Below the pieces are notes generated by a model. The model saw only the letters and a program-made list of their open reading frames with translations, searched no databases and was not told where the DNA came from. The position numbers and the translations under genes are program-made. From an uncultured Candidatus Saccharibacteria bacterium (GTDB lineage: Bacteria; Patescibacteriota; Saccharimonadia; Saccharimonadales; Saccharimonadaceae), in assembly GCA_964616255.1 (NCBI GenBank), contig CAZTQW010000006.1, forward strand, positions 2,389 through 66,388: a DNA stretch of 64,000 bases, written 5' to 3'. Positions 38,982 through 57,982 of the stretch are shown here, in pieces. Within the stretch, counting starts at the first letter, position 1; every line of letters begins with the position of its first letter.

Positions 38982-40580
38982 ATGAAAAAACAGCAGCATA
39001 TCCCTAGCTACCAGGCTTCGATTGGTCGTGTAGTAACAAAATTAAGAACCGAAAAAGGCTGGACGCAAGCTGATCTGGCGGAGGCGATTGGTAGTAGCCA
39101 GTCGGCAATTCATCGCATAGAAAAGGGTCATCAAAATGTTTCTTTGGAACAAATCAGGAAGCTTTCTCGAGCTTTAGGCAGCCAGATTCTCTCTATAAAT
39201 GACACAGTTTCGCAAAGTTATCGTATCAATGGCGGAAAAGAGCTTCATGGTGAAGCGACGATTAATTCTAGCAAAAATGCCGCTGTTGCTTTGCTTTGTA
39301 CTTCGTTATTAAATTCTGGGGTAACGAAGTTAAAGCATGTTGCGAGAATTGAGGAAGTTTTTAGAATTATCGAAGTCCTGGAATCGCTGGGTGTGAAATG
39401 CCGCTGGATTAATGAGAATCGTGATCTAGAAATTATATCACCAGATGAATTAGATTTAGAAAATATTAACGTGGAGGCAGCTCGCAAAACTCGTTCTATC
39501 TTGATGTTTATGGGTCCATTACTGCATAAGTTTCACCGCTTTCGTTTGCCCTATGCAGGTGGTTGCACCTTGGGGACACGGACGATTGAGCCGCATCTAA
39601 GAGCTTTGTCGGCTTTTGGGCTGAAGGTAGACGCAACGAGTTGTAGTGGTTTCTATGAAGCGAGTGTCAAGCCGCCTAAACGACCATTGAATAAAGATGC
39701 CGCCTATATCGATCAGGTCGATATTCCCTTCCCACCGAAGCGCATTGTCTTGATCGAGCGAGGCGACACGGTGACGGAGAACGTTTTGATGGCAGCTGCA
39801 CTCTATCCAGGGGAGACAACCATTGTCGGAGCCTCTTCAAATTATATGGTGCAGGATTTATGTTTCTTCTTGGAAAAACTGGGAGTAAAGATACGTGGTA
39901 TCGGATCAACAACGTTGCGAGTGCAAGGTCAGGCACAGATTAATATGGACGTAGAATATTCGCCGGCTGAAGATCCCATTGAAACCATGTCTTTTATCGC
40001 GGTGGCCCTGGTGACGAAGTCAAATTTGACAATTCGGCGAGCACCCATTGAGTTTCTAGAGATTGAGCTAGAAATTCTTAAAAGCATGGGGGCAAAGATC
40101 GATCGTTCACCAGAATATTATAGTGCAAATGGGCGCACCCGGTTAGTTGATCTGAAAATTCACAAATCAAAGTTAGTGGCACCAACCGACAAAATTGCCC
40201 CAATGCCGTTTCCGGGTTTAAATATTGATAATCTGCCGTTCTTTTCCGTAATTGCGGCTACTGCTGAGGGACGAACTTTGATTCACGACTGGGTGTTTGA
40301 AAACCGAGCAGTCTATGTAACATATTTAGAGAATCTTAATGCTAAAGTTGAGCTACTTGATGCTCATCGTGTCTATGTTGAGGGGCCGACTAATTGGCGT
40401 GCTGCCGAGCTGGTAGCGCCTCCAGCTTTAAGGCCAGCCGTGGTAGTTTTGATAGCGATGTTGGCAGCACCAGGAACTTCCATTCTACGAAATATTTATT
40501 CTATCAATCGTGGATACCAAGATTTTGCTGAGAGATTAGATCAATTGGGGGCAGATATTAAGCCGCTGATGGGAATTTAG
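38982..40580 (+). CDS. murA: UDP-N-acetylglucosamine 1-carboxyvinyltransferase with N-terminal XRE HTH domain
   Basis: HTH (LRTEKGWTQADLAEAIGSSQSAIHRIEKG) followed by SSKNAAVALL, PYAGGCTLGTR and PFPGLNIDN. Confidence 0.93.
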   Translation: MKKQQHIPSYQASIGRVVTKLRTEKGWTQADLAEAIGSSQSAIHRIEKGHQNVSLEQIRKLSRALGSQILSINDTVSQSYRINGGKELHGEATINSSKNAAVALLCTSLLNSGVTKLKHVARIEEVFRIIEVLESLGVKCRWINENRDLEIISPDELDLENINVEAARKTRSILMFMGPLLHKFHRFRLPYAGGCTLGTRTIEPHLRALSAFGLKVDATSCSGFYEASVKPPKRPLNKDAAYIDQVDIPFPPKRIVLIERGDTVTENVLMAAALYPGETTIVGASSNYMVQDLCFFLEKLGVKIRGIGSTTLRVQGQAQINMDVEYSPAEDPIETMSFIAVALVTKSNLTIRRAPIEFLEIELEILKSMGAKIDRSPEYYSANGRTRLVDLKIHKSKLVAPTDKIAPMPFPGLNIDNLPFFSVIAATAEGRTLIHDWVFENRAVYVTYLENLNAKVELLDAHRVYVEGPTNWRAAELVAPPALRPAVVVLIAMLAAPGTSILRNIYSINRGYQDFAERLDQLGADIKPLMGI

Positions 40581-42794: not shown

Positions 42795-43391
42795 CTATTC
42801 GTCGAGCTTTTTGGCTTCGGATTCTGAGGCGAAATCGGGCTCGCGGAAAGGATTAATGAAATTAACTAGGTCAGGGTTAGTCTTGGCTTTTGCCTTTGGC
42901 TTTTCGTGCTCGTCTGAGATCGTGATAGTGTAATCATCGACATCTGTTATTCGTGCCCTAGAAATGATTAGCTCAGGGTCAAGAAATGATTTGAGCCATG
43001 GACGCTGTACGACAATTTGTTGTACCTGCCAACTCTCTGGCTCAACCGAAAAATCAGTAACTTTCCCTAATTTCTCGCCCTTCTTACTCTGAACTTTTAG
43101 GCCTACTAAGGAAAAATTAAGCTCCAAGACATTCTTGATATTAATAACTTCATCTTCTTCGACTAGCTCGTCTACTGAGTCAATAATCATACCCAGACGA
43201 GAGAATTCCCTAATGCTATGCACCGGCAAAATGTTTCCCGCCTCGCGACCCACAAGTGGCCCTTCGACTTTAAAGGCGATAATCTTGAGCTCGTTAGGAT
43301 CAACTACTGGCTCAACTACTTGAGCAATTTTTCCGCTCACATGTAGACTAAGTATGGGACAATTAGTAAGTCGTGAGCTATTGATTAACAT
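42795..43391 (-). CDS. PRC-barrel domain protein
   Basis: Two PRC-like repeats (GKIAQVVEPVVDP; GEKLGKVTDFSVE). Confidence 0.75.
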   Translation of the reverse strand: MLINSSRLTNCPILSLHVSGKIAQVVEPVVDPNELKIIAFKVEGPLVGREAGNILPVHSIREFSRLGMIIDSVDELVEEDEVINIKNVLELNFSLVGLKVQSKKGEKLGKVTDFSVEPESWQVQQIVVQRPWLKSFLDPELIISRARITDVDDYTITISDEHEKPKAKAKTNPDLVNFINPFREPDFASESEAKKLDE

Positions 43392-43412
43392 ACTATTATT
43401 ATAGCATAAAAG

Positions 43413-45104
43413 TTATTTAACAAGCGGCGGTTGCCACATAGCAGGATAATCTGGCAATCCCAGTAGCATAGCAATCGTCGCAGCTACATTAGCCAGCCCG
43501 GCCTCGTTTAAGCCTGCACTGTGGTATTTTTTCGCATTTGTAGTATTATCGTAAAAAATACAAGGGACTGGATTAGTAGTATGGGCAGTCTTCGGGTTAC
43601 CTTCTTTATCTAGCAATTCCTCTGCATTACCATGATCGGCCGTAATAATCATCATGCCGCCGAGATCATCGACTTTTTTAGCTAAGCGCGCTAGCTGAAG
43701 ATCAATTGCCTCTATCGCTACAATGGTCGGCTCTAGCTCAGCGAAATGCCCAACCATATCTCCGCCCGGATAATTAATACGTACGAACTGATACTTATCT
43801 AGATTTTCTAGCACTACATCAGTGATTTCGGCTGATTTCATCCAGGGGCGAGTATTAAAAGGTTGAGTATCAGATGGAATCTCGAGCTGCGTCTCGCGCG
43901 GAGATTTTTTGTAGCTATTGCCGTTGAAATAATAAGTAATATGACCATATTTCACAGTTTCCGATACTGCTAGTTGTGAAATTTTATTCCGACCTAGATA
44001 TGTACTAAGTGGCGACTCGATTTTGACTGGAGGCACCAGGATATTAGCCGGAATATGGCGATCGCTATCATATTCTGTCAGACCTGCAAAATAAATTTCT
44101 GGTACATGGCCACGTTCAAACTTCGTAAAATCTTTCAAATCAAAAGCACTCGCAATCTCGATCGCGCGATCTGCCCGGAAATCATAATAAATCATGGCAT
44201 CGCCATCGCGAATTTGCCCAATGGCCTGGGCCCCTTGTCTAGTATTAGCACTAGAAGCCTTAGCTCGAGCGGCGCGTCCTTCTAGAACGGAGCTCGCGGC
44301 GCTGTTTTCAACAATCACGAAAGCCGGTAGATACTGGTCTTGCACCTGAGGATTTTCGCGTCTTAGGACTTTGATAGCTTCACTGGCCGATTTAAACTCG
44401 CGTGGGGCTTTGCCCTGCACCATCATATCCCAACCTAATTTGACCATTGACCAGTCATTCTCATAACGATCGGCTGTGGCAACCATACGTCCAGCGCCAG
44501 ATGCAATACGAAAATCTGCATCTTTGAATTGGGCACAAAATTTTTCTAGACGGTTAATGTACTTTGGTTCAGACTTCGGTGCAACATCACGACCATCAAA
44601 GACGCAATGGATCCGAATTTTCCGCACACCTTCGGCATAAGCTTGCTGAATCATTTGCTCCAAGTGCTTAATATCACTATGTACACCACCGTCAGAAAAG
44701 ATTCCACAGAAATGTAGGGTGCCAATCTGAGGCTTTTTAAGATTCGCTTCGTCTTTGCTCTTAACACTATTATTGGCATCCAACCATTTCATGGCACCTT
44801 TCCAGGCTTTAGAATTCCAGATATCACCAGTCGCGAAGGCCGCTTCAACCTGAGCAATTCCCTGCTGGATAATTTGTCCAGAACCCAGCGCATTATGACC
44901 AACCTCGGAATTGCCCATTTGACCAGGCATAATTCCTACCGCCTCACCCGAAGCTGCTAGCGGAATATTGAGATAATTCAGCATCGCTTTATCAAGAAAC
45001 TCGGTATGAGCCTGGCGCACGGCATTACCGCTGCGTCGAACCGATAAACCGACTCCGTCCATTACCACCAATACCACTGGACCGTCATAATGCAACTGTT
45101 TCAT
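43413..45104 (-). CDS. gpmI: 2,3-bisphosphoglycerate-independent phosphoglycerate mutase
   Basis: LVVMDGVG, MGNSEVGH, SDGGVHS, FRADRA, DMVGH, ITADHGNAE, TAHTTNPVP. Confidence 0.97.
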   Translation of the reverse strand: MKQLHYDGPVVLVVMDGVGLSVRRSGNAVRQAHTEFLDKAMLNYLNIPLAASGEAVGIMPGQMGNSEVGHNALGSGQIIQQGIAQVEAAFATGDIWNSKAWKGAMKWLDANNSVKSKDEANLKKPQIGTLHFCGIFSDGGVHSDIKHLEQMIQQAYAEGVRKIRIHCVFDGRDVAPKSEPKYINRLEKFCAQFKDADFRIASGAGRMVATADRYENDWSMVKLGWDMMVQGKAPREFKSASEAIKVLRRENPQVQDQYLPAFVIVENSAASSVLEGRAARAKASSANTRQGAQAIGQIRDGDAMIYYDFRADRAIEIASAFDLKDFTKFERGHVPEIYFAGLTEYDSDRHIPANILVPPVKIESPLSTYLGRNKISQLAVSETVKYGHITYYFNGNSYKKSPRETQLEIPSDTQPFNTRPWMKSAEITDVVLENLDKYQFVRINYPGGDMVGHFAELEPTIVAIEAIDLQLARLAKKVDDLGGMMIITADHGNAEELLDKEGNPKTAHTTNPVPCIFYDNTTNAKKYHSAGLNEAGLANVAATIAMLLGLPDYPAMWQPPLVK

Positions 45105-45107
45105 AAC

Positions 45108-46205
45108 TTACGGCCTCGGAACTTGTTGGGTAATACAATGAATGTTACCGCCGCCAAGTAGAATTTCGCGAGCATAGATTGGCTCAACTACTCGATCGGG
45201 GAAGCAAGCTTGAAGAGCATCAATTGCGGCTTGATCATGCTCGTCATTAAAGACTGGTAAGATAATTGCGCCGTTACAGTTGTAATAATTAATATAGCTA
45301 GCCGGCAAACGGTCGCCTTCGTTACGTGGGAATGTTCCCTCTACCATATCAACCCCATCGGATTCTTCTTGAGTAATGGTGACGACATTCGGTACATGAA
45401 TCTTGACGATTTCTAGTTTACGGCCTTTGGCATCGGTTTCACTTTCCAGATAATCCAGAGCAGCCTTTGATCGTTCATACTGTGGATCGTTTTCATTATC
45501 TTCCCAAGCCAAAACAACTTTGCCCGGGGCAACAAATTGACAAATATTATCAACGTGGCCGTTAGTGTCTTCGTCCATATAAATTCCCTTCGGAATCCAG
45601 AGGACTTTTTCGGCACCAAGATAATCTTTGAGCTTTTGTTCAATTTCTTCCTTGCTCATACCTGGGTTACGTCCTGGATCAAGCAAAGTTTCTTCTGTGG
45701 TTAGAATCGTGCCCTCACCATCGGAATGCACCGAACCACCTTCAAGAATAAAATCGGGAGTGCGGTAACGGTCGACACCTTCGATAGCGCACATTTTAGC
45801 AGCAATCAGATCGTCTTGATCCCAAGGGAAATAAATTCCGTTCACTAAACCACCGTAACCATTAAAGCCCCAGTCCACTGCACGCATATGGCCCTTACCA
45901 TCGACTAGGAAAGTTGCACCAGTATCTCGAATCCAGGAGTCATTGTTAGTAATCTCAACAATTTGCACATTCGGCATGTTAAGATTTAACGCGGTCGGAT
46001 ATTCGCGTGGACTTACCCCAATAACCACCGGTTCATATTTTGCGATTGTTTGAGCAACCTTACAAAATACGTGCTCAGCTTCTTCGGCATTATGCCGCCA
46101 GTTATCACCGCGTTCCGGCCACAACAAATACGTGCAGCGATGCTCTGATAGCTCAGATGGCATATAGAATCCATCTTGTTTCGGAGTAGAATCTGTAATT
46201 CTCAT
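45108..46205 (-). CDS. aguA: Agmatine deiminase
   Basis: WPERGDNW, DSWIRDTGA, LEGGSVHSDGEGT, DTNGHVDN, PASYINY, GGGNIHCITQQVP with the catalytic Cys intact. Confidence 0.95.
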   Translation of the reverse strand: MRITDSTPKQDGFYMPSELSEHRCTYLLWPERGDNWRHNAEEAEHVFCKVAQTIAKYEPVVIGVSPREYPTALNLNMPNVQIVEITNNDSWIRDTGATFLVDGKGHMRAVDWGFNGYGGLVNGIYFPWDQDDLIAAKMCAIEGVDRYRTPDFILEGGSVHSDGEGTILTTEETLLDPGRNPGMSKEEIEQKLKDYLGAEKVLWIPKGIYMDEDTNGHVDNICQFVAPGKVVLAWEDNENDPQYERSKAALDYLESETDAKGRKLEIVKIHVPNVVTITQEESDGVDMVEGTFPRNEGDRLPASYINYYNCNGAIILPVFNDEHDQAAIDALQACFPDRVVEPIYAREILLGGGNIHCITQQVPRP

Positions 46206-46228
46206 AAAATCCTTTTCTTAAATTATAG

Positions 46229-47701
46229 TTAACGTGTACTCTTAGCTCGCACTCGTTTCGTGCTGCGCTTGCGGGACTTTTGCTGAGCTTGTTTGCGGCT
46301 CATATTATAGACCATGATTTCGCCAATGATAATTGCAATGGCAGCACCAACAATCAATGGCCAGTTGTATTCAAACATTTCGAGATTAAATTCTGGGAAC
46401 AAAGTGAAGAACAAAGCAACTAGAATTAAGAGGAATGGCACTAAACCAAATAAGGTGATTTTGATTCTGCCACCGTTAATCCAGTATCCTTTTTTCACAG
46501 CTGGACCTTGCTTGTGGAGCTTGAGGAAGGCCATGAACATAGGAAGGTAGGAAAGCAAAAGCGTCACGAGGCTGAGCGAGAAGAAAGTCCAGAAGAGATT
46601 GGATAATTCAGGAACAAACTGCGCCACGATAATACCGGCGATAGCGATAATCGCACCGACTACACCAGTCCAGATTGAGACAACATATGGCACACCATTT
46701 TTGTTGCGCTTTGCCCAAGATTTTGGAAAAGTTCCGTCTTCGGCAGCATAAGCGATCACGGAGTTTACACCGAAATTCCAAGAAGAGATGTTGGCTACGA
46801 GGGTATAAATGAACATGCCACCTACCACAACCGTAATAGCTTTGATCGCAGCAGCAGAGAACCCAACGGTCGTTAGTAAGATATTGTAGCTATCAAGCAG
46901 CCCTGAGTCCGTGCTGATTTCTTCAAGCGGGATTGCCACACCGATACCGAATGAAGCTAAGAGATAAAATACGGCAATTAAAATACCTCCGACAATCACG
47001 GCTTTCGGAATTTCTTTTTTCGGATTTTGCATGTCTTCACTAAAGGTCGAAACTACTTCGAAGCCCAACATGTTAAAGATGATCAAAGCAACAAAGCCTA
47101 GACCAGTAAAATCGAATTTACCATCGGCACCGACCATTGGTAAGAAATCTGTCCAAGAATTAACTGGATTAGCACTGCCTTGAGTTACCAGAACATAAAT
47201 ACCAAGTGCACCAATTCCGGCCATGAAGACAAACTTACAAAATGCCCCGAGATTGGAAAGCCAAGCACTTTGAGAAATACGTAGCACACCCAGTACGGAA
47301 ACCAGGAGAATGTAGCCAATCTGAATGGCTAGAATTACCGGCCAAGTCATGTCGAACCCAAGCATTTGCAATAAATAAGTGGTGACAAGATCAGCAAGCG
47401 ATGCTACCCAGAGTGGATAATTCACCCAGTAGTACCAAGCTACGCGACCCGCCCATTTTTCGCCAAAGGCCTTCTTGACCCAGGTGTACATGCCACCCTC
47501 AGACGGATACTGGGTGCCAAGCTCTGCAGAAATTAATCCGTAGGGAACAAAGAAGCCGATAAGCATAATCGCCCACCAGACATACTGTGAATTGCCGATA
47601 GATGCAGTCGGTGCAACCGCATCACCAACTAGGATAATACAGACAGTAGCTAGTACTGCACTGAATAGCCTAAACTTTGGTTTTTTATTTTTTGTAGGCA
47701 T
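46229..47701 (-). CDS. aguD: APC-family permease, probable agmatine/putrescine antiporter
   Basis: About 12 TM segments, ELGTQYPSEGGMYTWVKKAFG, GFEVVSTFSE; lies between ptcA and aguA. Confidence 0.8.
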   Translation of the reverse strand: MPTKNKKPKFRLFSAVLATVCIILVGDAVAPTASIGNSQYVWWAIMLIGFFVPYGLISAELGTQYPSEGGMYTWVKKAFGEKWAGRVAWYYWVNYPLWVASLADLVTTYLLQMLGFDMTWPVILAIQIGYILLVSVLGVLRISQSAWLSNLGAFCKFVFMAGIGALGIYVLVTQGSANPVNSWTDFLPMVGADGKFDFTGLGFVALIIFNMLGFEVVSTFSEDMQNPKKEIPKAVIVGGILIAVFYLLASFGIGVAIPLEEISTDSGLLDSYNILLTTVGFSAAAIKAITVVVGGMFIYTLVANISSWNFGVNSVIAYAAEDGTFPKSWAKRNKNGVPYVVSIWTGVVGAIIAIAGIIVAQFVPELSNLFWTFFSLSLVTLLLSYLPMFMAFLKLHKQGPAVKKGYWINGGRIKITLFGLVPFLLILVALFFTLFPEFNLEMFEYNWPLIVGAAIAIIIGEIMVYNMSRKQAQQKSRKRSTKRVRAKSTR

Positions 47702-47704
47702 TAA

Positions 47705-48721
47705 TTATTCCTCCTCTTGCCTTTTTATTTTATCTAGGGTGGCCTCTGCCACTCCACCGAAGTATGCTAATAAACCACGTTGCGCCGTGAGACGATTTTC
47801 GGCTTGGTCCCATGCAATCGAATTTGGACTATCCAAAACTTCATCAGTTACTTCTTCGTTACGATTTGCAGGCAAACAATGCATGAACTTCGCGTTAGGA
47901 TTACCAGTCAAGGCCATGAGCTCATTGTTAACTTGATATTTAGGATAAAATTCGCGCATGTAAACTTCTTTGGGTGTCTCTTTGTCGTATAGTCCATACC
48001 AAACGTCAGTATAAACAAAATCAGCACCTTGAATGCGCTCGGGGTTATCAGTTACATAGACACTACCGCCGTAGACTTGGTTGTTAGCTCGGCCAATTTG
48101 CAGATAATCATCGGACAGCCACTTGGCCGGCGGACCATATTGCACAAAATTCATGCCCATTTTAGTCGTAATCATCATGAGCGAAGCGCAAACTTGCGTG
48201 CAATCACCTACGAAAACCACCTTGACTTGGCTCCAAGGTTTGCCCTCAGGCAAGTGATCAAAGATCGTGATAATATCACCAAGCTCTTGGGTAGGGTGAT
48301 TGTAATCAGACATACCATTGATAACTGGAACTGACGACTGGGCAGCAAGCTCCATGATACTTTCGTGACGATCGACACGTGCCATAATGATGTCACACAT
48401 TCGACTAATTACCTTGGCCGTATCACCGATAGTCTCATGACCGCCGAGCTGGATCGCTCCAGGAGCTAAATTTAAAGCATGTCCACCGAGTTGTTCCATG
48501 CCAACCTCAAAAGAGACACGGGTTCGCGTAGACTTCTGCTCAAAAATCATCGCTAAATTTTTATGGTATAGAGTTTCGAGTGTGCCACCCGCTTTAATGT
48601 ATGTCCGAATCGCTGTCGAAAGCTTAACCATGTCCAGCATTTCGGCCTGATCAAAATCAGTTGTGCTAATATAATCTTTGCGCGTAGGAACTACGTGACT
48701 TAAAACATAAGGATTATCCAT
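47705..48721 (-). CDS. ptcA: Putrescine carbamoyltransferase
   Basis: STRTRVSFE, GMSDYNHPTQELGD, TDVWYGLY, FYPKYQVN, HCLP match the putrescine transcarbamylase subtype; aguA is in the same operon. Confidence 0.88.
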   Translation of the reverse strand: MDNPYVLSHVVPTRKDYISTTDFDQAEMLDMVKLSTAIRTYIKAGGTLETLYHKNLAMIFEQKSTRTRVSFEVGMEQLGGHALNLAPGAIQLGGHETIGDTAKVISRMCDIIMARVDRHESIMELAAQSSVPVINGMSDYNHPTQELGDIITIFDHLPEGKPWSQVKVVFVGDCTQVCASLMMITTKMGMNFVQYGPPAKWLSDDYLQIGRANNQVYGGSVYVTDNPERIQGADFVYTDVWYGLYDKETPKEVYMREFYPKYQVNNELMALTGNPNAKFMHCLPANRNEEVTDEVLDSPNSIAWDQAENRLTAQRGLLAYFGGVAEATLDKIKRQEEE

Positions 48722-48814
48722 AATGGTATTATAACATACTTATGGATAATGAGGAGAAAACACAAGAAAAATCCCTCTTAAAACGTAGTCGAGCGAAATT
48801 GGCAGCCTAAATTT

Positions 48815-49882
48815 CTAGGCGAAGTTCACCGAATTAAGGTGTTCTCTAGCCTTCAAAGTGACTGCACGACCACGAGGAGTGCGCTCAATTAAGCCGAGCT
48901 GCAATAAGTACGGTTCGTAGTAATCTTCAATCGTAGCGGCCTCATCACCAGTAAGCGCAGCGATGGTGTTGAGGCCGACAGGGCGATCGCCGTAATTTTC
49001 GAGCATTAATTGTAGCATGTTGCGGTCGGCTGGATCGAGACCTAAATCGTCCACCTCCATCATGTCTAAAGCCGCGATCGCCAGATCATAAGTAATATAA
49101 CCGTCAGCATGAACGTCAGCATAATCTCGCACTCGTTTGGTCAAACGGTTAGCAATCCGCGGAGTGAGGCGCGAACGAGTAGCCAGCAAACCTGTGGCTT
49201 CTGGAGCGATGCCAGTACCTAATAAATTGGCTGTACGACTAATGATTCTTTCGATTTCCGGAATTTTGTAATATTCGAGACGGTGAATTAGGCCAAAGCG
49301 GTCACGCAGCGGGCCGGCGAGTGATCCGGTGCGAGTTGTCGCACCGATCACCGTGAACTTTGGCAAGTCTAAACGCACCGAGCGCGCGGCGGGGCCTTTG
49401 CCGATCACGATGTCGAGCTTGTAATCTTCCATAGCGGAATAAAGGATTTCTTCGACTGCCCGGCGCAGACGATGAATCTCGTCAATGAATAAAACATCAC
49501 CACTCTGCAAATTAGTAAGAATCGAAGCTAAATCCCCCGCGCGCTCAATCGCCGGCCCGCTAGTAATCCTGAGGCTTGCCCCCATCTCGTGTGCAATTAC
49601 ATTAGCCATGGTAGTCTTGCCAAGACCGGGTGGGCCATACAGCAAGACATGATCTAGCGATGTACCATCATCACGTTTCTTCACGGCATCAATCGCCAGC
49701 TTCAAGTTGGCTTTTAATCGTTCTTGACCGATATAATCAGCAAAAGTTGTAGGTCGGAGCGAAGCTTCTTCGGCTTGTTCAGAAGGATCATTATCGTTCA
49801 AATTAGAATCCACGAGACGATGTTTCTCGCCGGCGGCTTGCTTAGCTAGTTCCTCCAAATCTGTGCTTCTTTCGATTCCCAT
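48815..49882 (-). CDS. ruvB: Holliday junction branch migration helicase RuvB
   Basis: [57 protein letters not shown]. Confidence 0.98.
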
Positions 49883-49932: not shown

Positions 49933-51144
49933 ATGAATAATGAGTTAATTCTTCCGAAACAAACTGCCAATCTAGATGTTTTTGATGCGACTCTGAAAAT
50001 TTATAGTGAAGCTAATGGTGCATGGGTGACAAATCGCAATTATAAAGACCGCATTCAAGAATTAGTTCCCCGTCTCACGACTGGAGCACGCGATGAGGCT
50101 TTCATGGTCAAACAATCGGAGATGGCGCGCTATTTTGGCTTCGTGGAGTATGATTTCGAGCAACACCGAGCACGGATTACCTCTACTGGAAAAGAATTCT
50201 ACGAAGCTCGAATTAATCATGATCAGCCGAAGATTAATGATTTAATTTTGCAGGCAATTCTGCATCACAGTTTTGGTCGCAATAATTCAGCAATCAAAGG
50301 TAGCAATTCTGATGTCGACCCACCAAAACTGTTCGTAAAGGCAATTCTGGATACTACAGAAATTGACGATGACTCGGAAAGCGAAACTAGCGATGTGACT
50401 GATGGCATTAACAGAACTGATTTAGCTTATTTAATCTATTTGACTCACGATAAAGGAATTAGTTATGAAGATGCAATTAACTTGTTGCTCGGCTATTACA
50501 CTCTGCCAGCAGATTTGCCAAATAAATACACGGATGTGAAATTTCCCAAATTTCTGAAAAACTTAGGAATCGTACTCACGCATAATGGAAATTATCTTCT
50601 GAGTCCGGAAATCATGCTCCAATATGCTGAGCAAATTAAAAATCTTACTATTTATAATACTAATCATGCTAGCGAAATTACCAATGAAGATCTTGCGCAT
50701 GAGGCGATCATGCAAGCTACGGAGTATCCGAATTTAGAAAGTGATGATTTTATTAAGCAGAATGAACGCGAACCAGTCAAAGTCGTGAACACGCAAACCA
50801 CCTACAAGCGAGATGCGCGCCTCGCCAAAACCGCACTAGTGCGATCAAATTATAAATGTCTGCTCGATGAGGATCATACGACTTTTCCAGACAAAGATGG
50901 TCATTCTTATGTCGAGGCACATCATTTGATTCCGATGTCGGCCCAAAAAGATTTTGACATCAACATTGATCGTATAGAAAACATTGTTTCGCTTTGCCCA
51001 AATTGTCATAGGGCGATTCATTATGGCGACGATGCTACGAGACGCAGTTTATTAGAAAGATTATATGACCTGAAACGAGCTGATTTTGCGCAAGCCGAAC
51101 TCGATATTAGTTTTGATGATCTTTACAAAAAATATTATGCGTAA
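49933..51144 (+). CDS. Putative restriction endonuclease with C-terminal HNH domain
   Basis: CLLDEDHTTF...YVEAHHLIPM...NIVSLCPNCHRAIHYG; convergent with two C5 methyltransferases. Confidence 0.8.
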   Translation: MNNELILPKQTANLDVFDATLKIYSEANGAWVTNRNYKDRIQELVPRLTTGARDEAFMVKQSEMARYFGFVEYDFEQHRARITSTGKEFYEARINHDQPKINDLILQAILHHSFGRNNSAIKGSNSDVDPPKLFVKAILDTTEIDDDSESETSDVTDGINRTDLAYLIYLTHDKGISYEDAINLLLGYYTLPADLPNKYTDVKFPKFLKNLGIVLTHNGNYLLSPEIMLQYAEQIKNLTIYNTNHASEITNEDLAHEAIMQATEYPNLESDDFIKQNEREPVKVVNTQTTYKRDARLAKTALVRSNYKCLLDEDHTTFPDKDGHSYVEAHHLIPMSAQKDFDINIDRIENIVSLCPNCHRAIHYGDDATRRSLLERLYDLKRADFAQAELDISFDDLYKKYYA

Positions 51145-52288
51145 GCCGGCAGCCGTGTGTGAGCTCGAGAGCGATATTCTTTACTAGCATTGGTGGAATA
51201 CCTTCACCAATAACTTGGCGCACTAGTCGATCTTCGGCCCATTCTGGAATACCCCAATCAGTCGGCAGAGAAAAAACAATCAAAAGTTCATAAATCGTCA
51301 AACACCGAGCATCGGAATAAATTCGCACACCGTCAGCATCATGGCCCAGGCATTTGCCGGGGTGAACACAACACAATGACGAGATTACACCATTGTTTTG
51401 TGTAATCGTACGAGCAGGCTTATCCCATTCAAAACGTCGATAGGTATTATAATGACCATTCACCCGCTCGCCGTTATCTTTTTTAGGATAATAGACTGGG
51501 TTATGGAAGGCCGTCTCGCCCGTAGGAGTATGCATCATCGTAATCACGTGTTTTTTAGCATGAACTGGCGGGTGGTGAAATTTTGACAGAGCTTCGGCCT
51601 GTTCTTTTTTGTCATAAAAATCTGGAAAAAGCTTCAAGGTCTCGTCAATTCCCTCGCGTAACATGGGGTCCACAGACGGCAAATGATAAAGAGCCTTGCG
51701 TAAATTAATATGCGGCTTAGGCGCGGGCATCTGCCAAGTGTAAGATAAATCTTTGCGCGACAGGAGAAAAATATTACGCCGACGCATCTGTGGAACTTCA
51801 TAATCCATAGCACTAACTAAACTCTGATCAGCAAAATTATAGTCAGGTGCCAATTCTTGCTTGATATATTCGGGGATCATCATGGTCTGCTCACGCACAT
51901 GAATCTCGGTTTTGAGAAGTTGCGGAACGTTTTCGAGCAGGACGTACTTCGGCTTCAGTTCCTTAATCATCTTCACCGCATAAAAAATTAGTTGATTGCG
52001 CTCATCGTAACGATCACGTTTGCCCGCCAGACTCATGCCTTGGCAAGGCGGAGTAGCAATGACGAAATCCACTTGTTGCCGACGAGCACGTTGTAAAATT
52101 TGTGCAAAAACCGCTTCATCAGCAATGTCACCAGTAATGACTTCCGTCGCCGGATACAAATACTGATAAAATCGGGAACGTGTTGGATCGATTTCATTAG
52201 CTATGACAATATCAATACCACAATCATGTAGGTAGGTTTCGGCAATACCGACATTGGCGAAGAGGGACAGGCCGCGTAATCTATTCAT
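51107..52288 (-). CDS. DNA (cytosine-5)-methyltransferase 2
   Basis: Motif I SLFANVGIAE, catalytic PPCQG, ENV, QMRRR, motif X GEGIPP. Confidence 0.95.
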   Translation of the reverse strand: MNRLRGLSLFANVGIAETYLHDCGIDIVIANEIDPTRSRFYQYLYPATEVITGDIADEAVFAQILQRARRQQVDFVIATPPCQGMSLAGKRDRYDERNQLIFYAVKMIKELKPKYVLLENVPQLLKTEIHVREQTMMIPEYIKQELAPDYNFADQSLVSAMDYEVPQMRRRNIFLLSRKDLSYTWQMPAPKPHINLRKALYHLPSVDPMLREGIDETLKLFPDFYDKKEQAEALSKFHHPPVHAKKHVITMMHTPTGETAFHNPVYYPKKDNGERVNGHYNTYRRFEWDKPARTITQNNGVISSLCCVHPGKCLGHDADGVRIYSDARCLTIYELLIVFSLPTDWGIPEWAEDRLVRQVIGEGIPPMLVKNIALELTHGCRLTHNIFCKDHQN

Positions 52289-53416
52289 GGATCCTCACTA
52301 ACTCTTGCATAATATTCTTTACTAGCATTGGTGGAATACCTTCACCAATAACTTGGCGCACGAAATGCTCGGAAGCCCAGCTCGGTATATTCCAATTATC
52401 TGGCAAAGACATAATACGCATCAACTCAAAAACCGTCAGCACGCGCGCATCAGAATAAATATCGAAGCCGTCCTGGTCTTTACCAAGGTAGTGCCCAGGG
52501 TGAACGTTATTCTGCGAGCCAATTGTGCGATTATACATCGTAATAGTATAACCCGGTCGATCCCAAGCCTGACGCTTGTAAGTATTTTTAAAACCTTTGA
52601 CCAATGTGCCATCTTTTTTTCTAGGCTTAAACCGGTCGATATTACGAAAGGCCGTCTCACCCGTAGGAGTATGCATTAAACTAATGACCTGACGATAAAT
52701 ATGTTTGGGAGGATAGTGCCAAGGTGAGACTTTCAGCCCAGCGACCTTTTTTTGCTCAAAATCAGGAAAGAGCTTTTTCCGCTCCGCTAAAGGCAAGTCG
52801 TGCACTTCGGGATCTAGTGATGGTAAGTTGCCAATTGCTTCGGCCATAGTAATAATATGTTCATGCTTGGGTGGGGTATGCCAGACATAAGGCAAATCTT
52901 TGCGGGTTAAAAGCATAATTGCGCGCTCGCGAGTTTGCGGTACACTATAATCTTCTGCATTCATAACGAATTGACTGTTGAAGTTATAGTTTTCGCCCAG
53001 TTCTTGCTGCACATAATCCGGTATCAAAACTTTATCACCTCGATAAGGAATACATGTGCGCAGTTGCTCGGGCACGTTCTCTAAAAAGACGTACTTCGGC
53101 TTCAGTTCCTTAATCATCTTGACGGCATAAGTAATCAAGAAGTTACGTTCGTCATTCTGATCCTTCTTTCCGGCCGTACTCATTCCCTGGCAGGGCGGAG
53201 TGGCCATAATCAAATCAACCGACTGCTGCCTAGCATAGTCTAAAAGACATTCCTGGACAGCGCTATCCTTGATGTCCCCCGTGACCATTTTTGTCTGGGG
53301 ATACAAATGCTGATAAAATCGGGAACGTGTTGGATCGATTTCATTAGCTATGACAATATCAATACCACAATCATGTAGGTAGGTTTCGGCAATACCGACA
53401 TTGGCGAAGAGGGACA
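51174..53416 (-). repeat. Identical DNA blocks shared by the two methyltransferase genes
   Basis: 107 bp (52163-52269 = 53310-53416), 33 bp (51941-51973 = 53088-53120) and 50 bp (51174-51223 = 52312-52361). Confidence 0.9.
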
Positions 53417-53438
53417 TTGCCTTGATTTTTGGTCGCAT
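52281..53438 (-). CDS. DNA (cytosine-5)-methyltransferase 1
   Basis: SLFANVGIAE, PPCQG, ENV, QTRER, GEGIPP; paralog of the adjacent gene. Confidence 0.95.
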   Translation of the reverse strand: MRPKIKAMSLFANVGIAETYLHDCGIDIVIANEIDPTRSRFYQHLYPQTKMVTGDIKDSAVQECLLDYARQQSVDLIMATPPCQGMSTAGKKDQNDERNFLITYAVKMIKELKPKYVFLENVPEQLRTCIPYRGDKVLIPDYVQQELGENYNFNSQFVMNAEDYSVPQTRERAIMLLTRKDLPYVWHTPPKHEHIITMAEAIGNLPSLDPEVHDLPLAERKKLFPDFEQKKVAGLKVSPWHYPPKHIYRQVISLMHTPTGETAFRNIDRFKPRKKDGTLVKGFKNTYKRQAWDRPGYTITMYNRTIGSQNNVHPGHYLGKDQDGFDIYSDARVLTVFELMRIMSLPDNWNIPSWASEHFVRQVIGEGIPPMLVKNIMQELVRIHE

Positions 53439-54042: not shown

Positions 54043-55215
54043 TTAGACACTGCCATTATTTGGACAAGGGCCTTGGTCAGTCCAACAATTAGCCGTGATC
54101 CAGAAATTCTTTAGGAATGATTTATCTCCATCTCCTGTGAGCTCTACTTCGTATTCTGGGTATGGGAAGAAGAGATCGGCGGGATCTAGCCTTGTCTCGA
54201 CTCGACGCACGAGCTGATTGGCACGACCAGTGGAGTCGACACTGATTTGGACGTTTTCGAATGGAATAGGATCGCCGCCATCGTCTAATAGCTCCACCAT
54301 GAAATCGGTGACGATATCTCCATATGGCATAGAGATTATCAACATGGCATTTTGTATATCAGTCCCCATTCCTGCTTCTAAGGTGACTGAACACGCGAAC
54401 TCATCACCCATTTTACACTGAACTAGATATGGTTCATTCGGTTTTGATGATAAGCCTGCGTTTGCTACATCATTATTATCGAAAAAATTGCCGGCCCTAG
54501 ATGCGTTAGTTGTGCTAGGCAAAAACAGCATGCTGCCGTAGTTAGGATCCTCGCTTTTATTAAAAGCATCGAGATTAATTGTGCCTTTTGTCTTCAGTAA
54601 CGTAACCGACAGAGCTGGCGGTGTATATGAGTCGTTCTTGTTCGGTAGTTTCTTACTATTTCCTGCAGTTTTTCCGAATTTAGTACCATTAACTTCAGAA
54701 TACCAATTTATTCTGATTTTTTTAACATTAGACAGCTCAGTACTACCTATACCTAGAGGAACTACTTTTGTTCTATTGTCGGACGTAAGAGTAGAACGAT
54801 AATCACCGACTATGTTCTCAAGGATCACACATGTATAGGCCTGTTCAGTACTGTTGCCAGCGGATTCTTGAATTTTGACTTCACCAGCTCCGCTGCCAGG
54901 ATAGAGGAAAGACTTTAACTTAAATGTGCCACCTTCTGCACCCTCACTATTACATTCTCCACCGAACAAATCGCCAATGTCTGCAGAATTATAATTCTTA
55001 TAAAACTTGTTTACCGCTAATTTAGCATCTTCTACACCAGCCATGGCCGAGTCATAGGCGGATTGACTAAGGTCGTCATTTCCTGTTTGCTGAGACTCCG
55101 ATAAAATAATCCGAATGAAGCTGAGGGTGATGACCCCGAATAGAATCGTTGCGAAGATAACTACATACAACGAGGCAACCCCTTTCTTACTTAAACTTTT
55201 ATTAATCTTTTTCAT
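54043..55215 (-). CDS. PilX/GspK-like minor pilin
   Basis: Prepilin-like KKG/VASLYVVIFATILFGVITLSF lacking Glu5; SQSAYDSAMAGVEDA. Confidence 0.75.
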   Translation of the reverse strand: MKKINKSLSKKGVASLYVVIFATILFGVITLSFIRIILSESQQTGNDDLSQSAYDSAMAGVEDAKLAVNKFYKNYNSADIGDLFGGECNSEGAEGGTFKLKSFLYPGSGAGEVKIQESAGNSTEQAYTCVILENIVGDYRSTLTSDNRTKVVPLGIGSTELSNVKKIRINWYSEVNGTKFGKTAGNSKKLPNKNDSYTPPALSVTLLKTKGTINLDAFNKSEDPNYGSMLFLPSTTNASRAGNFFDNNDVANAGLSSKPNEPYLVQCKMGDEFACSVTLEAGMGTDIQNAMLIISMPYGDIVTDFMVELLDDGGDPIPFENVQISVDSTGRANQLVRRVETRLDPADLFFPYPEYEVELTGDGDKSFLKNFWITANCWTDQGPCPNNGSV

Positions 55216-55216
55216 A

Positions 55217-56197
55217 CTAGTCTACTCCAGCCGTACGGGCGGCAAAATTAAATTTATTAATCGCACAATAATTAAATTCTGAGCCAAGATCATTAAGACT
55301 GCTAGTGTCTCCCGAGATAACTTCACCAGTTACTGGATCCACCACACTATTTGGCTGACAATAATCACCTGTCCTAACGATATCTATATTGCCTCTTGTA
55401 GTTGCTAAAGTAAAAGTACCAGACATGTATGTACGTAGTGTCATGTTGTCTTGACTGATTGGGAAAATTGTAAATTCATACAGTTCCAAATCAAGATCAA
55501 AAGCACTCAGCATCATGCCGCCTTCTGGTTTTGAAATGGGATTTTCTGGCGATGATGCAGCATTTCTCATTCTTGTAATATCAAATACGACATCTGCCTC
55601 TACAAATGAATCGCTTACTCCTTCATAGGTAGAAGTGTAGTCATTCTTAAGTTTCGCTGTACACAATCTGTAAGTAGGATCTTTAATTCGTACAAGCCTC
55701 GGCTTATCTACTTTTTCGAGATTTCCGTCTGTATCTATGTATTGTAGCGACACAGTACTTTTATTAGGGCCGTTCAACCCATAATATGTATTCCACATGT
55801 ATGAATAGGTTCCAGAACAGAAAATTCCATTAAGTTGTCTGCCTTTTTCGTCTCTTCTATCTTGATAAACAAATTTGAAAGCATGTTGTTTTTTGCATTC
55901 TTTAACTCTATGAGCATTACTTTCGCTCTGATTAAGAAAATCACCATTGCATAAGCTTGTGGTATCAACAGCAGGCGCAGTATTAATCCCAGCAATAAAC
56001 TCATCTGTTAGGCCACGTCCTACACTATTTACTGCTTTGATAGTTAAACCTTTCTGATATATTGTCATTATATTACTAGTTATAACGGCGATAGTAATTA
56101 GTAATACTGCAACGAAAGCCATAGTGAGGGATAACTCTACCATAGTAAAACCACTCTTTGCACTGGAATAACCTAATGTTTTTTTTCCAAACTTCAT
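55217..56197 (-). CDS. Type IV minor pilin
   Basis: Prepilin motif KSG/FTMVELSLTMAFVAVLL. Confidence 0.85.
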   Translation of the reverse strand: MKFGKKTLGYSSAKSGFTMVELSLTMAFVAVLLITIAVITSNIMTIYQKGLTIKAVNSVGRGLTDEFIAGINTAPAVDTTSLCNGDFLNQSESNAHRVKECKKQHAFKFVYQDRRDEKGRQLNGIFCSGTYSYMWNTYYGLNGPNKSTVSLQYIDTDGNLEKVDKPRLVRIKDPTYRLCTAKLKNDYTSTYEGVSDSFVEADVVFDITRMRNAASSPENPISKPEGGMMLSAFDLDLELYEFTIFPISQDNMTLRTYMSGTFTLATTRGNIDIVRTGDYCQPNSVVDPVTGEVISGDTSSLNDLGSEFNYCAINKFNFAARTAGVD

Positions 56198-57057
56198 TAC
56201 ATACCCTCCGGATTATATAATCGAATAACAGTGTCGATAGATTGGGGAGTATTACCAGTCGGGCCATTCCAGCAACTCTGAATATAAAAATCATAATACT
56301 CCTCTGTACTACCAGCACTGGCTGTCTCTGATTTACCTCTGACAGCAATAATCCATAGCCCTTCAACTTTTGCGACCCTATTATATTTTGCTTGATCTAG
56401 ATACTGCACATCTGAGTTTGTAGATTGATTCCCCGTGTCATTTTTAAAAATTATGCGGGCATTAAGTGGTGATTCGGTAAATAAACTATTTTTCGAAGTT
56501 ACACTACCACTCGCACCGTAAGATGTCTGGACGGTTGGTATAAATGAAACATCAGGGCTTACTTGATGACTACCTGTTGGGATAGTTTGTAAGTCTCTGG
56601 TATTGAGAACAAAAGCTTTTCTATCTGTTAGCATTTTATTATCATTTTCATATATCTTAGAACAACCTTGAACGATCACGTCGCCTAAGTTCGCCATATT
56701 GACTCCAGTAGCGGTTGTCATAGTAGTAGAATCAATAGCACTCTCCGTAATCGCCTTCCAGAGCTTAGTATATTGTTGATATTTTTCATCAGCTGCCATT
56801 TCACTTTGATACTCAGGAAGTGTGAGTTCGGAAATATATGAGCTATGGATAAATCTCAATGCTTCAGCTTGTGCATTAAGCTCATTGCGGGTTGTCACGA
56901 CTTCTAGCGAGCCCTCGGCCTGGGCTACCCCCATATTCATCATAGCTACTGATATTACTGCCACCAGACAGAATACTGCGATAGCAAACATAACCTCAAT
57001 GATAGTGTCACCGCGTTTAGTCTGGTATATATTTTTTGTTAACTTTCTTACTTGCAT
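56197..57057 (-). CDS. Type IV minor pilin
   Basis: Prepilin motif KRG/DTIIEVMFAIAVFCLVAV. Confidence 0.85.
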   Translation of the reverse strand: MQVRKLTKNIYQTKRGDTIIEVMFAIAVFCLVAVISVAMMNMGVAQAEGSLEVVTTRNELNAQAEALRFIHSSYISELTLPEYQSEMAADEKYQQYTKLWKAITESAIDSTTMTTATGVNMANLGDVIVQGCSKIYENDNKMLTDRKAFVLNTRDLQTIPTGSHQVSPDVSFIPTVQTSYGASGSVTSKNSLFTESPLNARIIFKNDTGNQSTNSDVQYLDQAKYNRVAKVEGLWIIAVRGKSETASAGSTEEYYDFYIQSCWNGPTGNTPQSIDTVIRLYNPEGM

Positions 57058-57911: not shown

Positions 57912-57982
57912 GTTTCTATATTATCATAAGTTTTTTAATAAATGAACTCTTGATTTTTGCATTTTATATATTATTCATGCTG

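What the first reader, a model, noticed from the sequence alone, without database searches (positions are those of the whole stretch)
45108..48721. Agmatine deiminase operon (ptcA-aguD-aguA) in a CPR genome, without carbamate kinase and running into gpmI
Seen: putrescine carbamoyltransferase, an APC antiporter and agmatine deiminase with intact catalytic motifs, spaced 3 and 23 bp apart, then gpmI only 3 bp downstream. No carbamate kinase or regulator is at the locus. Known: in Enterococcus, Streptococcus and Lactobacillus the AgDI pathway yields ATP through carbamate kinase, plus ammonia and putrescine; oral Saccharibacteria are reported to have acquired the analogous arginine deiminase system. 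Inference: a parallel, Firmicute-derived acquisition giving ATP or acid protection from agmatine and releasing putrescine to host or gut. If carbamate kinase is absent genome-wide, the purpose may be pH control or carbamoyl-phosphate supply.
Basis: partly seen in the sequence, partly recalled or inferred. Interest (0 to 1): 0.7.

Follow-up and report, generated by a model that had tools for sequence, protein, structure and literature searches.

The report
Agmatine-to-ATP operon in gut Saccharibacteria
A tiny rodent-gut episymbiont (Saccharibacteria) carries an intact agmatine-breakdown operon; its "missing" ATP-making kinase very probably sits elsewhere in the genome, and the cassette is common in gut Saccharibacteria rather than a one-off acquisition.

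Summary
On the minus strand lie ptcA (47705-48721), an APC antiporter aguD (46229-47701), aguA (45108-46205) and gpmI (43413-45104), with gaps of 3, 23 and 3 bp. No carbamate kinase (CK), arcA, arcB or regulator is found in the 64 kb.

The interpretation needs revising:
- **Spread.** The trio is not specific to this genome. More than 120 Saccharibacteria AguA proteins are 65-88% identical. In at least 21 of 80 species-level Saccharibacteria CK loci the same cassette lies beside arcC. There it sits alone or with the arginine deiminase genes, always just upstream of gpmI.
- **This lineage.** A rearrangement put ruvB upstream and separated arcC from the cassette.
- **CK elsewhere.** In the four runs that hold the window at 100%, one contig is collinear with a conserved "small protein-arcC-FAD oxidoreductase" locus. 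Its depth tracks the window's depth (22.5/16.6/33.7/15.6 against 23.6/14.3/33.0/15.9). The genome very probably has CK, so the pathway most likely yields ATP.
- **Operon.** ptcA has a -10 box 6 nt before its ATG, which suggests a leaderless transcript. aguD, aguA and gpmI have Shine-Dalgarno sites. I read this as a four-gene operon.

The closest named relatives are Bacilli clusters with the same gene order. This is a new member of a known kind, and I found no paper describing it for Saccharibacteria.

The parts
48728..48736 (-). Promoter-like extended -10 box (TGtTATAAT). The hexamer is at 48733-48728 and ends 6 nt before the ptcA ATG, so a leaderless transcript start is inferred.
   Evidence: Sequence read. 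The same box lies 6-7 nt before ptcA in 24 distinct Saccharibacteria upstream sequences, including the window; 7 more AgDI loci failed the scan because it picked the wrong ATG, and 2 of those show the box by eye. In the window, 9 of 47 genes have such a box at exactly offset 6, against a background of about 1 per offset. No RNA evidence.
47705..48721 (-). ptcA, putrescine carbamoyltransferase (N-carbamoylputrescine + Pi <-> putrescine + carbamoyl phosphate).
   Evidence: TIGR04384 481 bits against OTC 321. Best PDB matches are E. faecalis PTC structures 3txx/4a8h, E = 1e-118; 58% identity to E. faecalis PtcA by BLASTP. STRTR, HPTQ and HCLPA are present, as are the PTC-type IQLGGHETI and DVWYGLY loops. 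dN/dS is 0.012 against L004.
46229..47701 (-). aguD, an APC-family permease, inferred to be an agmatine/putrescine antiporter.
   Evidence: Pfam AA_permease_2. It is 41-44% identical to the permease that sits between ptcA and aguA in E. faecalis, Listeria and Secundilactobacillus. A Shine-Dalgarno site GAGGAGGA lies upstream. dN/dS is 0.008. Substrate not tested.
45108..46205 (-). aguA, agmatine deiminase (agmatine + H2O -> N-carbamoylputrescine + NH3).
   Evidence: TIGR03380 538 bits, cut-off 382. Best PDB hits are S. mutans 2ewo and E. faecalis 2jer. The Asp/His/Asp/Cys catalytic positions are conserved. dN/dS is 0.041.
43413..45104 (-). gpmI, cofactor-independent phosphoglycerate mutase. 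It is the inferred fourth gene of the operon.
   Evidence: TIGR01307 379 bits. It starts 3 bp after the aguA stop, with a GAGG inside the aguA 3' end. It lies directly downstream of the cassette, on the same strand, in every related locus whose downstream flank was recovered.
43398..43403 (-). The next leaderless-type -10 box (TATAAT 6 nt before the PRC-barrel gene at 42795-43391). It marks the likely start of the next transcription unit.
48815..49882 (-). ruvB, the upstream neighbour with its own -10 box. In this lineage it takes the place that arcC/pgi hold in Ca. Nanosyncoccus-type loci.
   Evidence: NF000868 477 bits. Synteny in L004-L009, L095-L098 and L105-L107.

Best explanation
This is a working agmatine deiminase (AgDI) pathway of a rodent-gut Saccharibacterium.

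Proposed mechanism:
1. AguD takes up agmatine in exchange for putrescine.
2. AguA deiminates agmatine to N-carbamoylputrescine and releases NH3.
3. PtcA phosphorolyses N-carbamoylputrescine to putrescine and carbamoyl phosphate.
4. A carbamate kinase encoded elsewhere in the same genome (in a conserved 'small protein-arcC-FAD oxidoreductase-DsbD' locus) converts carbamoyl phosphate and ADP to ATP, NH3 and CO2.

ptcA-aguD-aguA-gpmI are probably one operon, transcribed from a promoter whose -10 box lies 6 nt before the ptcA ATG (leaderless mRNA). No dedicated regulator is present.

Evolution: the trio is an old cassette of Bacilli-like origin. In gut Saccharibacteria it alternates or co-exists with the arginine deiminase cassette at one site, between arcC/pgi and gpmI. 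In the window's lineage a rearrangement uncoupled arcC from it.

Shown: gene identities, motifs, purifying selection, synteny across species, and a CK-like contig that co-varies in depth with the window. Inferred: substrate specificity of AguD, the operon and leaderless start, the intactness of the genome's own arcC, and ATP yield.
For: - Family and structure matches and motifs.
- Strong purifying selection despite saturated synonymous divergence: dN/dS is 0.008-0.041, as tight as ruvB.
- More than 120 Saccharibacteria AguA homologues at 65-88% identity.
- 80 GTDB Saccharibacteria arcC loci carry an ADI cassette (47), an AgDI cassette (14) or both (7-9) between arcC/pgi and gpmI-galU.
- The window-type locus (ruvB-ptcA-aguD-aguA-gpmI-PRC-recX-recA) is seen in eight assemblies, plus Logan and ENA contigs.
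- arcC (TIGR00746 374 bits, cut-off 358) lies on the contig of a mouse-gut relative with that locus type.
- The same p131-arcC-oxidoreductase-DsbD context occurs in four further metagenome contigs.
- One contig in X1-X4 matches two different arcC references, and is collinear with the p131-arcC-oxidoreductase context on the one that carries it. Its depth follows the window: 22.5/16.6/33.7/15.6 against 23.6/14.3/33.0/15.9, r = 0.985. Other CK-like contigs in those runs differ widely in depth.
- Bacilli clusters have the order ptcA-permease-aguA-arcC.
- Promoter and Shine-Dalgarno pattern.
Against: - I never saw the sequence of the CK-like contig from X1-X4. Only about 77-80% identical pieces and collinear spacing are known, so an intact ORF is not proven. 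Co-abundance in four runs of a single study is strong evidence but not proof of one genome.
- The L106 contig that links arcC to the locus differs after recA from 18 or more other contigs of that species, so it may be a rare rearrangement or a mis-join.
- PtcA is 19 bits below the curated TIGR04384 cut-off.
- There is no usable RNA evidence for the operon or the leaderless start (one search was too sparse).
- No enzyme or transport assay exists for any Saccharibacteria AgDI protein.
Confidence: 0.72

Rival explanations
1. A truncated pathway without carbamate kinase. The trio serves only to make NH3 (acid protection) and putrescine, and carbamoyl phosphate decays or is used otherwise.
For: No CK in the 64 kb window. 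No window-type contig, up to 193 kb, carries a CK from the two hit lists.
Against: A CK-homologous contig has the window's depth profile in four runs. arcC is present in a relative with the same locus type. ptcA is under very strong purifying selection, which is hard to explain if its product were wasted. Agmatine/putrescine exchange alone should give no energy (general knowledge, not tested here).
Confidence: 0.1
2. A polyamine supply route. The genes mainly provide putrescine to a cell that cannot make polyamines, and ATP is a by-product or irrelevant.
For: AguA is also the first step of the putrescine biosynthetic route in plants and Pseudomonas (general knowledge). Saccharibacteria have very reduced biosynthesis (PMC8764695).
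Against: The biosynthetic route uses N-carbamoylputrescine amidohydrolase, not PTC. The permease matches the one in catabolic Bacilli clusters. In many species the cassette sits directly beside arcC and can stand in place of the catabolic ADI cassette.
Confidence: 0.12
3. PtcA is really a catabolic ornithine carbamoyltransferase and the cluster is a variant arginine deiminase system.
For: It also passes the generic OTC model TIGR00658 (321 bits, cut-off 281).
Against: The PTC model scores 160 bits higher. The OTC SMG loop is replaced by the PTC loop DVWYGLY. The true arcB of relatives is only about 34% identical and carries DVWLSMG. There is no arcA in the window. No arcA-like contig was recruited from X1-X4 at 80% or more, although CK, gpmI and galU of the same reference were.
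Confidence: 0.02
4. A recent transfer from a Firmicute into this genome, or a contig that is mis-binned and not CPR.
For: The closest named relatives are Bacilli.
Against: Identity to Bacilli is only 41-58%, against 65-98% to other Saccharibacteria. G+C content is unremarkable. Flanking genes and synteny are shared with many Saccharibacteria MAGs. The cassette uses the genome's own leaderless promoter style, whereas the Bacilli ptcA genes have Shine-Dalgarno leaders.
Confidence: 0.02

Closest known systems
AgDI gene cluster of Bacilli (ptcA/aguB-aguD-aguA-aguC/arcC in Enterococcus faecalis, Listeria monocytogenes, Secundilactobacillus, Streptococcus mutans)
   Same: The same three proteins occur in the same order. 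PtcA is 58%, AguD 41-44% and AguA 48-58% identical, with PTC and AgDI motifs intact. Saccharibacteria AguA forms one clade next to Listeria/Secundilactobacillus AguA in an NJ tree.
   Different: There is no aguC/arcC after aguA; gpmI follows instead. There is no AguR/LuxR- or RpiR-type regulator. The promoter is leaderless rather than followed by a Shine-Dalgarno leader. PtcA has a 12-residue N-terminal extension and a shorter C-terminal tail. CK is unlinked here, or shared with an ADI cassette in Ca. Nanosyncoccus-type relatives.
Arginine deiminase system of mammal-associated Saccharibacteria (arcA-arcB-arcE-arcC; Tian et al. 2022, PMC8764695)
   Same: The logic is the same: guanidino-group deimination, then carbamoyl phosphate, then ATP through carbamate kinase, with NH3 release and an antiporter. 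In gut relatives the genomic site is the same (between arcC/pgi and gpmI) and the arcC is the same. A Firmicute-like origin was proposed for both.
   Different: The substrate is agmatine, not arginine. The enzymes differ (AguA of the PAD_porph family against ArcA; PTC against OTC). The antiporter is of the APC family rather than the YfcC/DcuC type. arcA, arcB and arcE are absent from the window. arcA and the YfcC-type antiporter recruited no contig from the source runs; the arcB result there is unclear.
Biosynthetic agmatine route (AguA plus N-carbamoylputrescine amidohydrolase) of plants and Pseudomonas
   Same: The first enzyme and the intermediate are the same; Arabidopsis AguA is the third-best PDB match.
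   Different: The second step here is phosphorolytic (PTC) and conserves energy. No nitrilase-family amidohydrolase is at the locus.

Membership tests
AgDI pathway cluster (aguBDAC type) | Agmatine deiminase of the AguA equivalog family with the catalytic Cys/His/Asp set | tested here: met
   TIGR03380 538 bits against a cut-off of 382. The WIRD, GHVD and NIHCITQ positions align with E. faecalis D96/H218/D220/C357 (residue numbers recalled from the literature).
AgDI pathway cluster (aguBDAC type) | Putrescine carbamoyltransferase rather than OTC: PTC-type loops, higher score on the PTC model | tested here: met
   PTC model 481 bits against OTC 321. DVWYGLY and IQLGGHETI are present. 58% identity to the crystallised E. 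faecalis PTC.
AgDI pathway cluster (aguBDAC type) | PtcA reaches NCBIfam's curated cut-off for TIGR04384 (500 bits) | tested here: not met
   481.3 bits. The relative in L001 scores 462.9. The whole Saccharibacteria clade sits just under a cut-off that I assume was calibrated mainly on Firmicutes.
AgDI pathway cluster (aguBDAC type) | Agmatine/putrescine antiporter encoded between ptcA and aguA | tested here: inconclusive
   The position is the same and identity to the Bacilli cluster permease is 41-44%. No curated AguD model exists in NCBIfam (the best hits are TyrP/GadC, far below cut-off). Substrate not testable here.
AgDI pathway cluster (aguBDAC type) | Carbamate kinase (aguC/arcC) in the cluster | tested here: not met
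   Absent from the 64 kb window. Probably present elsewhere in the genome. Adjacent to the cassette in at least 21 other Saccharibacteria species.
AgDI pathway cluster (aguBDAC type) | Dedicated regulator (AguR or similar) next to the cluster | tested here: not met
   The neighbours are ruvB and gpmI. Only a constitutive-looking -10 box is present.
Arginine deiminase system (arcABC) | arcA arginine deiminase and arcB OTC present | tested here: not met
   No tblastn hit for ADI or the YfcC-type antiporter in the window. The OTC query hits only ptcA, at 34%.
Candidatus Saccharibacteria (CPR/Patescibacteria) genome | Flanking core genes and synteny shared with Saccharibacteria assemblies | tested here: met
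   RuvB is 97%, GpmI 89% and PRC 91% identical to GCA_949738505.1 in the same gene order. Source names given for AguA relatives read 'Candidatus Saccharibacteria bacterium'. CK-island relatives are titled Ca. Saccharibacteria or Ca. Nanosyncoccus. No 16S rRNA gene is in the window.

The most novel reading that the evidence does not exclude
Gut Saccharibacteria carry interchangeable 'carbamoyl-phosphate feeder' cassettes, arginine (arcB-arcA-arcE) or agmatine (ptcA-aguD-aguA), at one conserved site next to a shared carbamate kinase and the glycolytic genes pgi and gpmI. Co-resident episymbionts would then partition arginine against agmatine. In the rodent-gut lineage of this window, agmatine has replaced arginine as the only feeder of a now solitary arcC. 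Agmatine is a product of the arginine-decarboxylase acid response of other bacteria, possibly of the host bacterium itself. On this reading it would be a main ATP source and a metabolic link between epibiont and host.
Probability: 0.3. Interest if true: 0.6.

Novelty: new member of a known kind. Interest (0 to 1): 0.42.

Why it matters
The only energy-yielding amino-acid pathway studied so far in Saccharibacteria is the arginine deiminase system, which has been linked to their adaptation to mammals (PMC8764695, PMC11659515). No paper in the searchable library describes an agmatine pathway in this phylum.

The data here show that a second, agmatine-based feeder of carbamate kinase is common in ruminant and rodent gut Saccharibacteria. 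It swaps with, or adds to, the arginine cassette at the same site.

Three consequences follow:
- Surveys that count any 'OTCace' protein as arcB could miscount the arginine system.
- There is a testable nutrient, agmatine, for cultivating gut Saccharibacteria.
- These organisms could be a source of luminal putrescine and ammonia.

The finding is not surprising in mechanism: every enzyme is an orthologue of a well-studied one.

Tried and rejected
- **Exact look-up.** The window's AguA is not on record, so the source contig could not be extended.
- **Cluster membership.** The listing of cluster members on CK hits, meant to recover assembly accessions, returned none.
- **Representative search with AguA.** It gave only unnamed 50%-cluster representatives at 51% identity or less. 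Naming ten proteins (seven top representatives and three basal AguA hits) showed Atopobiaceae at 49% and Carnimonas at 44%, both further away than Bacilli. This is too thin for a real origin test.
- **CK hits followed up as possible window-lineage kinases.** P0186, P0507 and P0500 turned out to be ordinary arcC-ADI-gpmI islands or a short arcC-arcA contig.
- **Presumed RNA runs X14/X17.** Only 150-200 nt contigs at depth 2-5 were recovered, so there was no information on co-transcription. One 203-nt contig of an untyped run spans the aguA-gpmI junction.
- **Tetranucleotide and G+C comparison.** This was meant to decide whether the arcC half of L106 belongs to the same genome. It did not discriminate: E. 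faecalis scored as high as true relatives.
- **Generic promoter/terminator scan.** It gave no more hits than shuffles for promoters, and no convincing terminator inside the operon. The position-specific analysis was informative instead.
- **Rejected readings.** OTC identity of PtcA, a non-CPR contig, and recent transfer from a Firmicute are treated under the rival explanations.
Full report
**1. Observation**

The minus strand carries four tightly packed ORFs: ptcA 47705-48721, aguD 46229-47701, aguA 45108-46205 and gpmI 43413-45104. They are separated by 3, 23 and 3 bp. ruvB (48815-49882) lies upstream and a PRC-barrel gene (42795-43391) downstream.

- NCBIfam puts AguA well above the agmatine deiminase cut-off (538 against 382 bits).
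- PtcA scores 481 bits on the putrescine carbamoyltransferase model, against 321 on the best OTC model. That is 19 bits under the curated PTC cut-off.
- The best solved structures are E. faecalis PTC for PtcA (E = 1e-118) and S. mutans and E. faecalis agmatine deiminases for AguA.
- Alignment shows the PTC-type loops IQLGGHETI and DVWYGLY, where a true Saccharibacteria arcB has DVWLSMG. It also shows STRTR, HPTQ and HCLPA, and the Asp/His/Asp/Cys set of AguA.
- tblastn with Saccharibacteria carbamate kinase, ADI, OTC, YfcC-type antiporter and PGI finds none of these in the window.
- An independent 9684-bp Logan contig reproduces 41520-51203 without a single difference.

**2. Whose genome**

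- Runs X1-X4 hold every sampled word of the region. Mouse and rat gut metagenomes hold about 70% of the words, that is, strains about 99% identical.
- The nearest assembly, GCA_949738505.1, has the same gene order. RuvB is 97%, PtcA 96% and AguD 98% identical, although nucleotide identity is only 81%.
- AguA relatives that carry a source name are 'Candidatus Saccharibacteria bacterium'.
- G+C content at the locus is unremarkable.

This is a rodent-gut Saccharibacterium. The genes are native to it, not a recent import.

**3. How widespread**

More than 120 AguA proteins at 65-88% identity were returned. All that carry a source name, and all whose context I examined, are Saccharibacterial.

I scanned one genome per GTDB species with a Saccharibacteria carbamate kinase profile. 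The 80 best loci are all titled Ca. Saccharibacteria or Ca. Nanosyncoccus, except two titled only 'bacterium isolate', and are mostly from ruminant guts. Mapping the genes shows one conserved island, pgi-arcC-[cassette]-gpmI-galU:

| Cassette beside arcC | Loci (of 80) |
|---|---|
| ADI set (arcB-arcA-YfcC/DcuC-type antiporter) | 47 |
| AgDI set (ptcA-aguD-aguA) | 14 |
| Both | 7-9 |
| Other (six with no cassette in the recovered flank, four with a partial cassette; mostly at contig ends) | 10-12 |

gpmI directly follows the cassette on the same strand in every case with enough flank. So 'running into gpmI' is ancestral synteny.

A second arrangement is ruvB-ptcA-aguD-aguA-gpmI-PRC-recX-recA-murA-galU, without arcC or pgi. 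It is the window's own arrangement. It recurs in GCA_949738505.1, GCA_964523355.1, GCA_948544185.1, GCA_951800845.1, GCA_964442535.1, GCA_949467475.1, GCA_948868785.1 and several Logan and ENA contigs. One of these is explicitly labelled mouse gut metagenome.

In an NJ tree the Saccharibacteria AguA proteins form one clade. The window-type loci make up a large sub-clade, apart from the more basal P0101 mouse-gut lineage. The whole clade sits next to Listeria/Secundilactobacillus AguA, with E. faecalis further out.

**4. Origin**

E. faecalis, L. monocytogenes and Secundilactobacillus records show ptcA-APC permease-aguA. arcC follows in the two records that extend far enough; the Listeria stretch ends just after aguA. 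The window's proteins are 58% (PtcA), 41-44% (AguD) and 48-58% (AguA) identical to them. Named representatives from Atopobiaceae and Carnimonas are more distant, at 49% and 44%.

This fits a single, old, Bacilli-like acquisition. The outgroup sampling is thin, so I rate it as plausible rather than shown.

**5. Is the pathway complete?**

Four lines of evidence bear on it.

- (a) In a mouse-gut species with the window-type locus (AguA P0101, present in 271 index blocks), one assembly carries a 313-residue carbamate kinase on the same contig, 7.4 kb beyond aguA. It scores 374 bits on TIGR00746 (cut-off 358). The other contigs of that species diverge at that point, so the linkage distance is uncertain.
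- (b) A JGI/ENA scan with that kinase found four more contigs with the same micro-synteny: small protein p131, arcC, then a convergent FAD oxidoreductase and DsbD-like gene. No arcA or arcB is within 10 kb.
- (c) I laid the contigs of X1-X4 on one of these loci (L111). One contig (4476, 4507, 4507 and 9700 bp in the four runs) aligns collinearly. It covers 110 nt of p131, 314 nt in the middle of arcC and 392 nt of the oxidoreductase, with 1039 letters between the last two where the reference has 1052. The same contig also matches two conserved arcC segments of an unrelated reference, L115.

| Run | CK-like contig depth | Window locus depth |
|---|---|---|
| X1 | 22.5 | 23.6 |
| X2 | 16.6 | 14.3 |
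| X3 | 33.7 | 33.0 |
| X4 | 15.6 | 15.9 |

The correlation is r = 0.985. Other CK-like contigs in the same runs have depths such as 52.8/198/52.5/209, which correlate negatively with the window.

- (d) ptcA and aguD are under very strong purifying selection: dN/dS is 0.012 and 0.008 against L004, with dS above 1.5, compared with 0.023 for ruvB. That would be odd if carbamoyl phosphate were wasted.

I conclude, at roughly 80%, that the genome has an unlinked arcC. I did not see that contig's sequence, so its intactness is inferred.

On the same reference (L115), arcA and the YfcC-type antiporter recruited essentially nothing from X1-X4. Yet arcC, gpmI and galU recruited contigs from several co-resident Saccharibacteria. 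This weakly suggests that these rodent-gut lineages lack the arginine system altogether. It is negative evidence at an 80% identity threshold.

**6. Transcription**

The ptcA ATG is preceded by TGtTATAAT, and the hexamer ends 6 nt before the A of the ATG. The same placement (6-7 nt) is found before ptcA in 24 distinct upstream sequences, including the window, whose intergenic sequence is otherwise unalignable. Seven more AgDI loci failed the scan because it picked the wrong ATG, and two of those show the box by eye. By contrast, arcB in relatives and ptcA in Bacilli have a -10 box followed by a Shine-Dalgarno leader.

Within the window, -10-like hexamers upstream of start codons peak sharply at offset 6: 9 of 47 genes, against about 1 per offset elsewhere. 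aguD, aguA and gpmI instead have Shine-Dalgarno sequences and no such box. The next box stands before the PRC-barrel gene.

I therefore read ptcA-aguD-aguA-gpmI as one operon with a leaderless first gene and no dedicated regulator. This rests on sequence alone. The available presumed RNA runs were too sparse to test it.

**7. Comparison with what is known, and novelty**

The enzymes are orthologues of the well-studied AgDI pathway of lactic acid bacteria. The logic parallels the Saccharibacteria arginine deiminase system of Tian et al. (PMC8764695).

Three things differ:
- arcC is not the fourth gene. It is unlinked here, and shared with the ADI cassette in Ca. Nanosyncoccus-type genomes.
- gpmI is the fourth gene.
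- There is no regulator.

Full-text searches found no paper that treats agmatine deiminase or putrescine carbamoyltransferase in Saccharibacteria or Patescibacteria. Public annotation already names the proteins.

I file this as a new member of a known kind. The most interesting side result is that ADI and AgDI behave as interchangeable cassettes at one site beside carbamate kinase.

**8. Verdict**

Identity, CPR origin and Bacilli affinity hold. The 'parallel acquisition' and 'no carbamate kinase' readings do not.
- Interest is moderate (0.42). The finding is useful for the physiology and cultivation of gut Saccharibacteria, but ordinary in mechanism.

Noticed in passing
window-wide; examples 9547-13293(-), 20420-21055(-), 24847-26505(-), 36950-38026(-), 38982-40580(+), 42795-43391(-), 57983-58414(-): A TATAAT-like box ends exactly 6 nt before the start codon of 9 of 47 genes, against a background of about 1 per offset. 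These are typically the first genes of gene runs and lack a Shine-Dalgarno site. This suggests that leaderless mRNAs are a general feature of this Saccharibacterium. I found no paper discussing this for the phylum.
   Followed up: partly
window 49933-53438: An HNH endonuclease gene and two tandem C-5 cytosine methyltransferase genes lie between ruvB and rubrerythrin. In relatives (L005, L006, L007 and L096), rubrerythrin lies directly next to ruvB, so this looks like an inserted restriction-modification module. The two methylase genes share an identical 50-nt stretch (51174 and 52312), and all Logan assemblies break there.
   Followed up: partly
window 45981-46094 (inside aguA, codons ~38-75): Strains about 99% identical, from mouse and rat gut metagenomes (X5-X8), carry a 114-nt replacement patch of the same length here. 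AguA is also less conserved against L004 (88%) than PtcA and AguD (96-98%). This may be a recombination tract.
   Followed up: no
L105 vs L106 (GCA_949467475.1 / GCA_948868785.1), locus position ~15692: Two assemblies of one mouse-gut species are 99.98% identical for 15.7 kb and then diverge just after recA. One continues with murA-galU, as the window does. The other continues with DsbD-FAD oxidoreductase-arcC-VTT-RNase Y. This is either a rearrangement or a mis-join; composition could not decide.
   Followed up: partly
window 43413-45104 and relatives: GpmI is long and variable in length among these Saccharibacteria: 532 to 627 residues, and 563 here. The NCBIfam match is split into two stretches, which implies a lineage-specific insertion in the middle of the enzyme.
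   Followed up: no
window 38982-40580(+): MurA (EPSP_synthase fold) carries an N-terminal Cro/C1-type HTH domain. The fusion is conserved in all window-type relatives.
   Followed up: no
window 31018-33015(-): A single 665-residue ORF joins a MatE efflux domain to a C-terminal cytidylate-kinase-like domain.
   Followed up: no
window 6826-8571(+): A serpin-family protein with a long low-complexity N-terminal region and a signal-anchor-like segment. This is unusual cargo for a reduced genome.
   Followed up: no
window 59481-63404(-): A 1307-residue multi-pass membrane protein has no Pfam match at E <= 1e-5. It lies next to a run of pilin-like genes at 54043-58414.
   Followed up: no
L010-L089 (GTDB Saccharibacteria arcC loci): arcC and the first cassette gene are often divergently transcribed, with only about 40-110 bp between them. 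They share a recurring CTTGTGCTTAAAA motif upstream of the -10 box. This may be a common promoter or operator region for the island.
   Followed up: no
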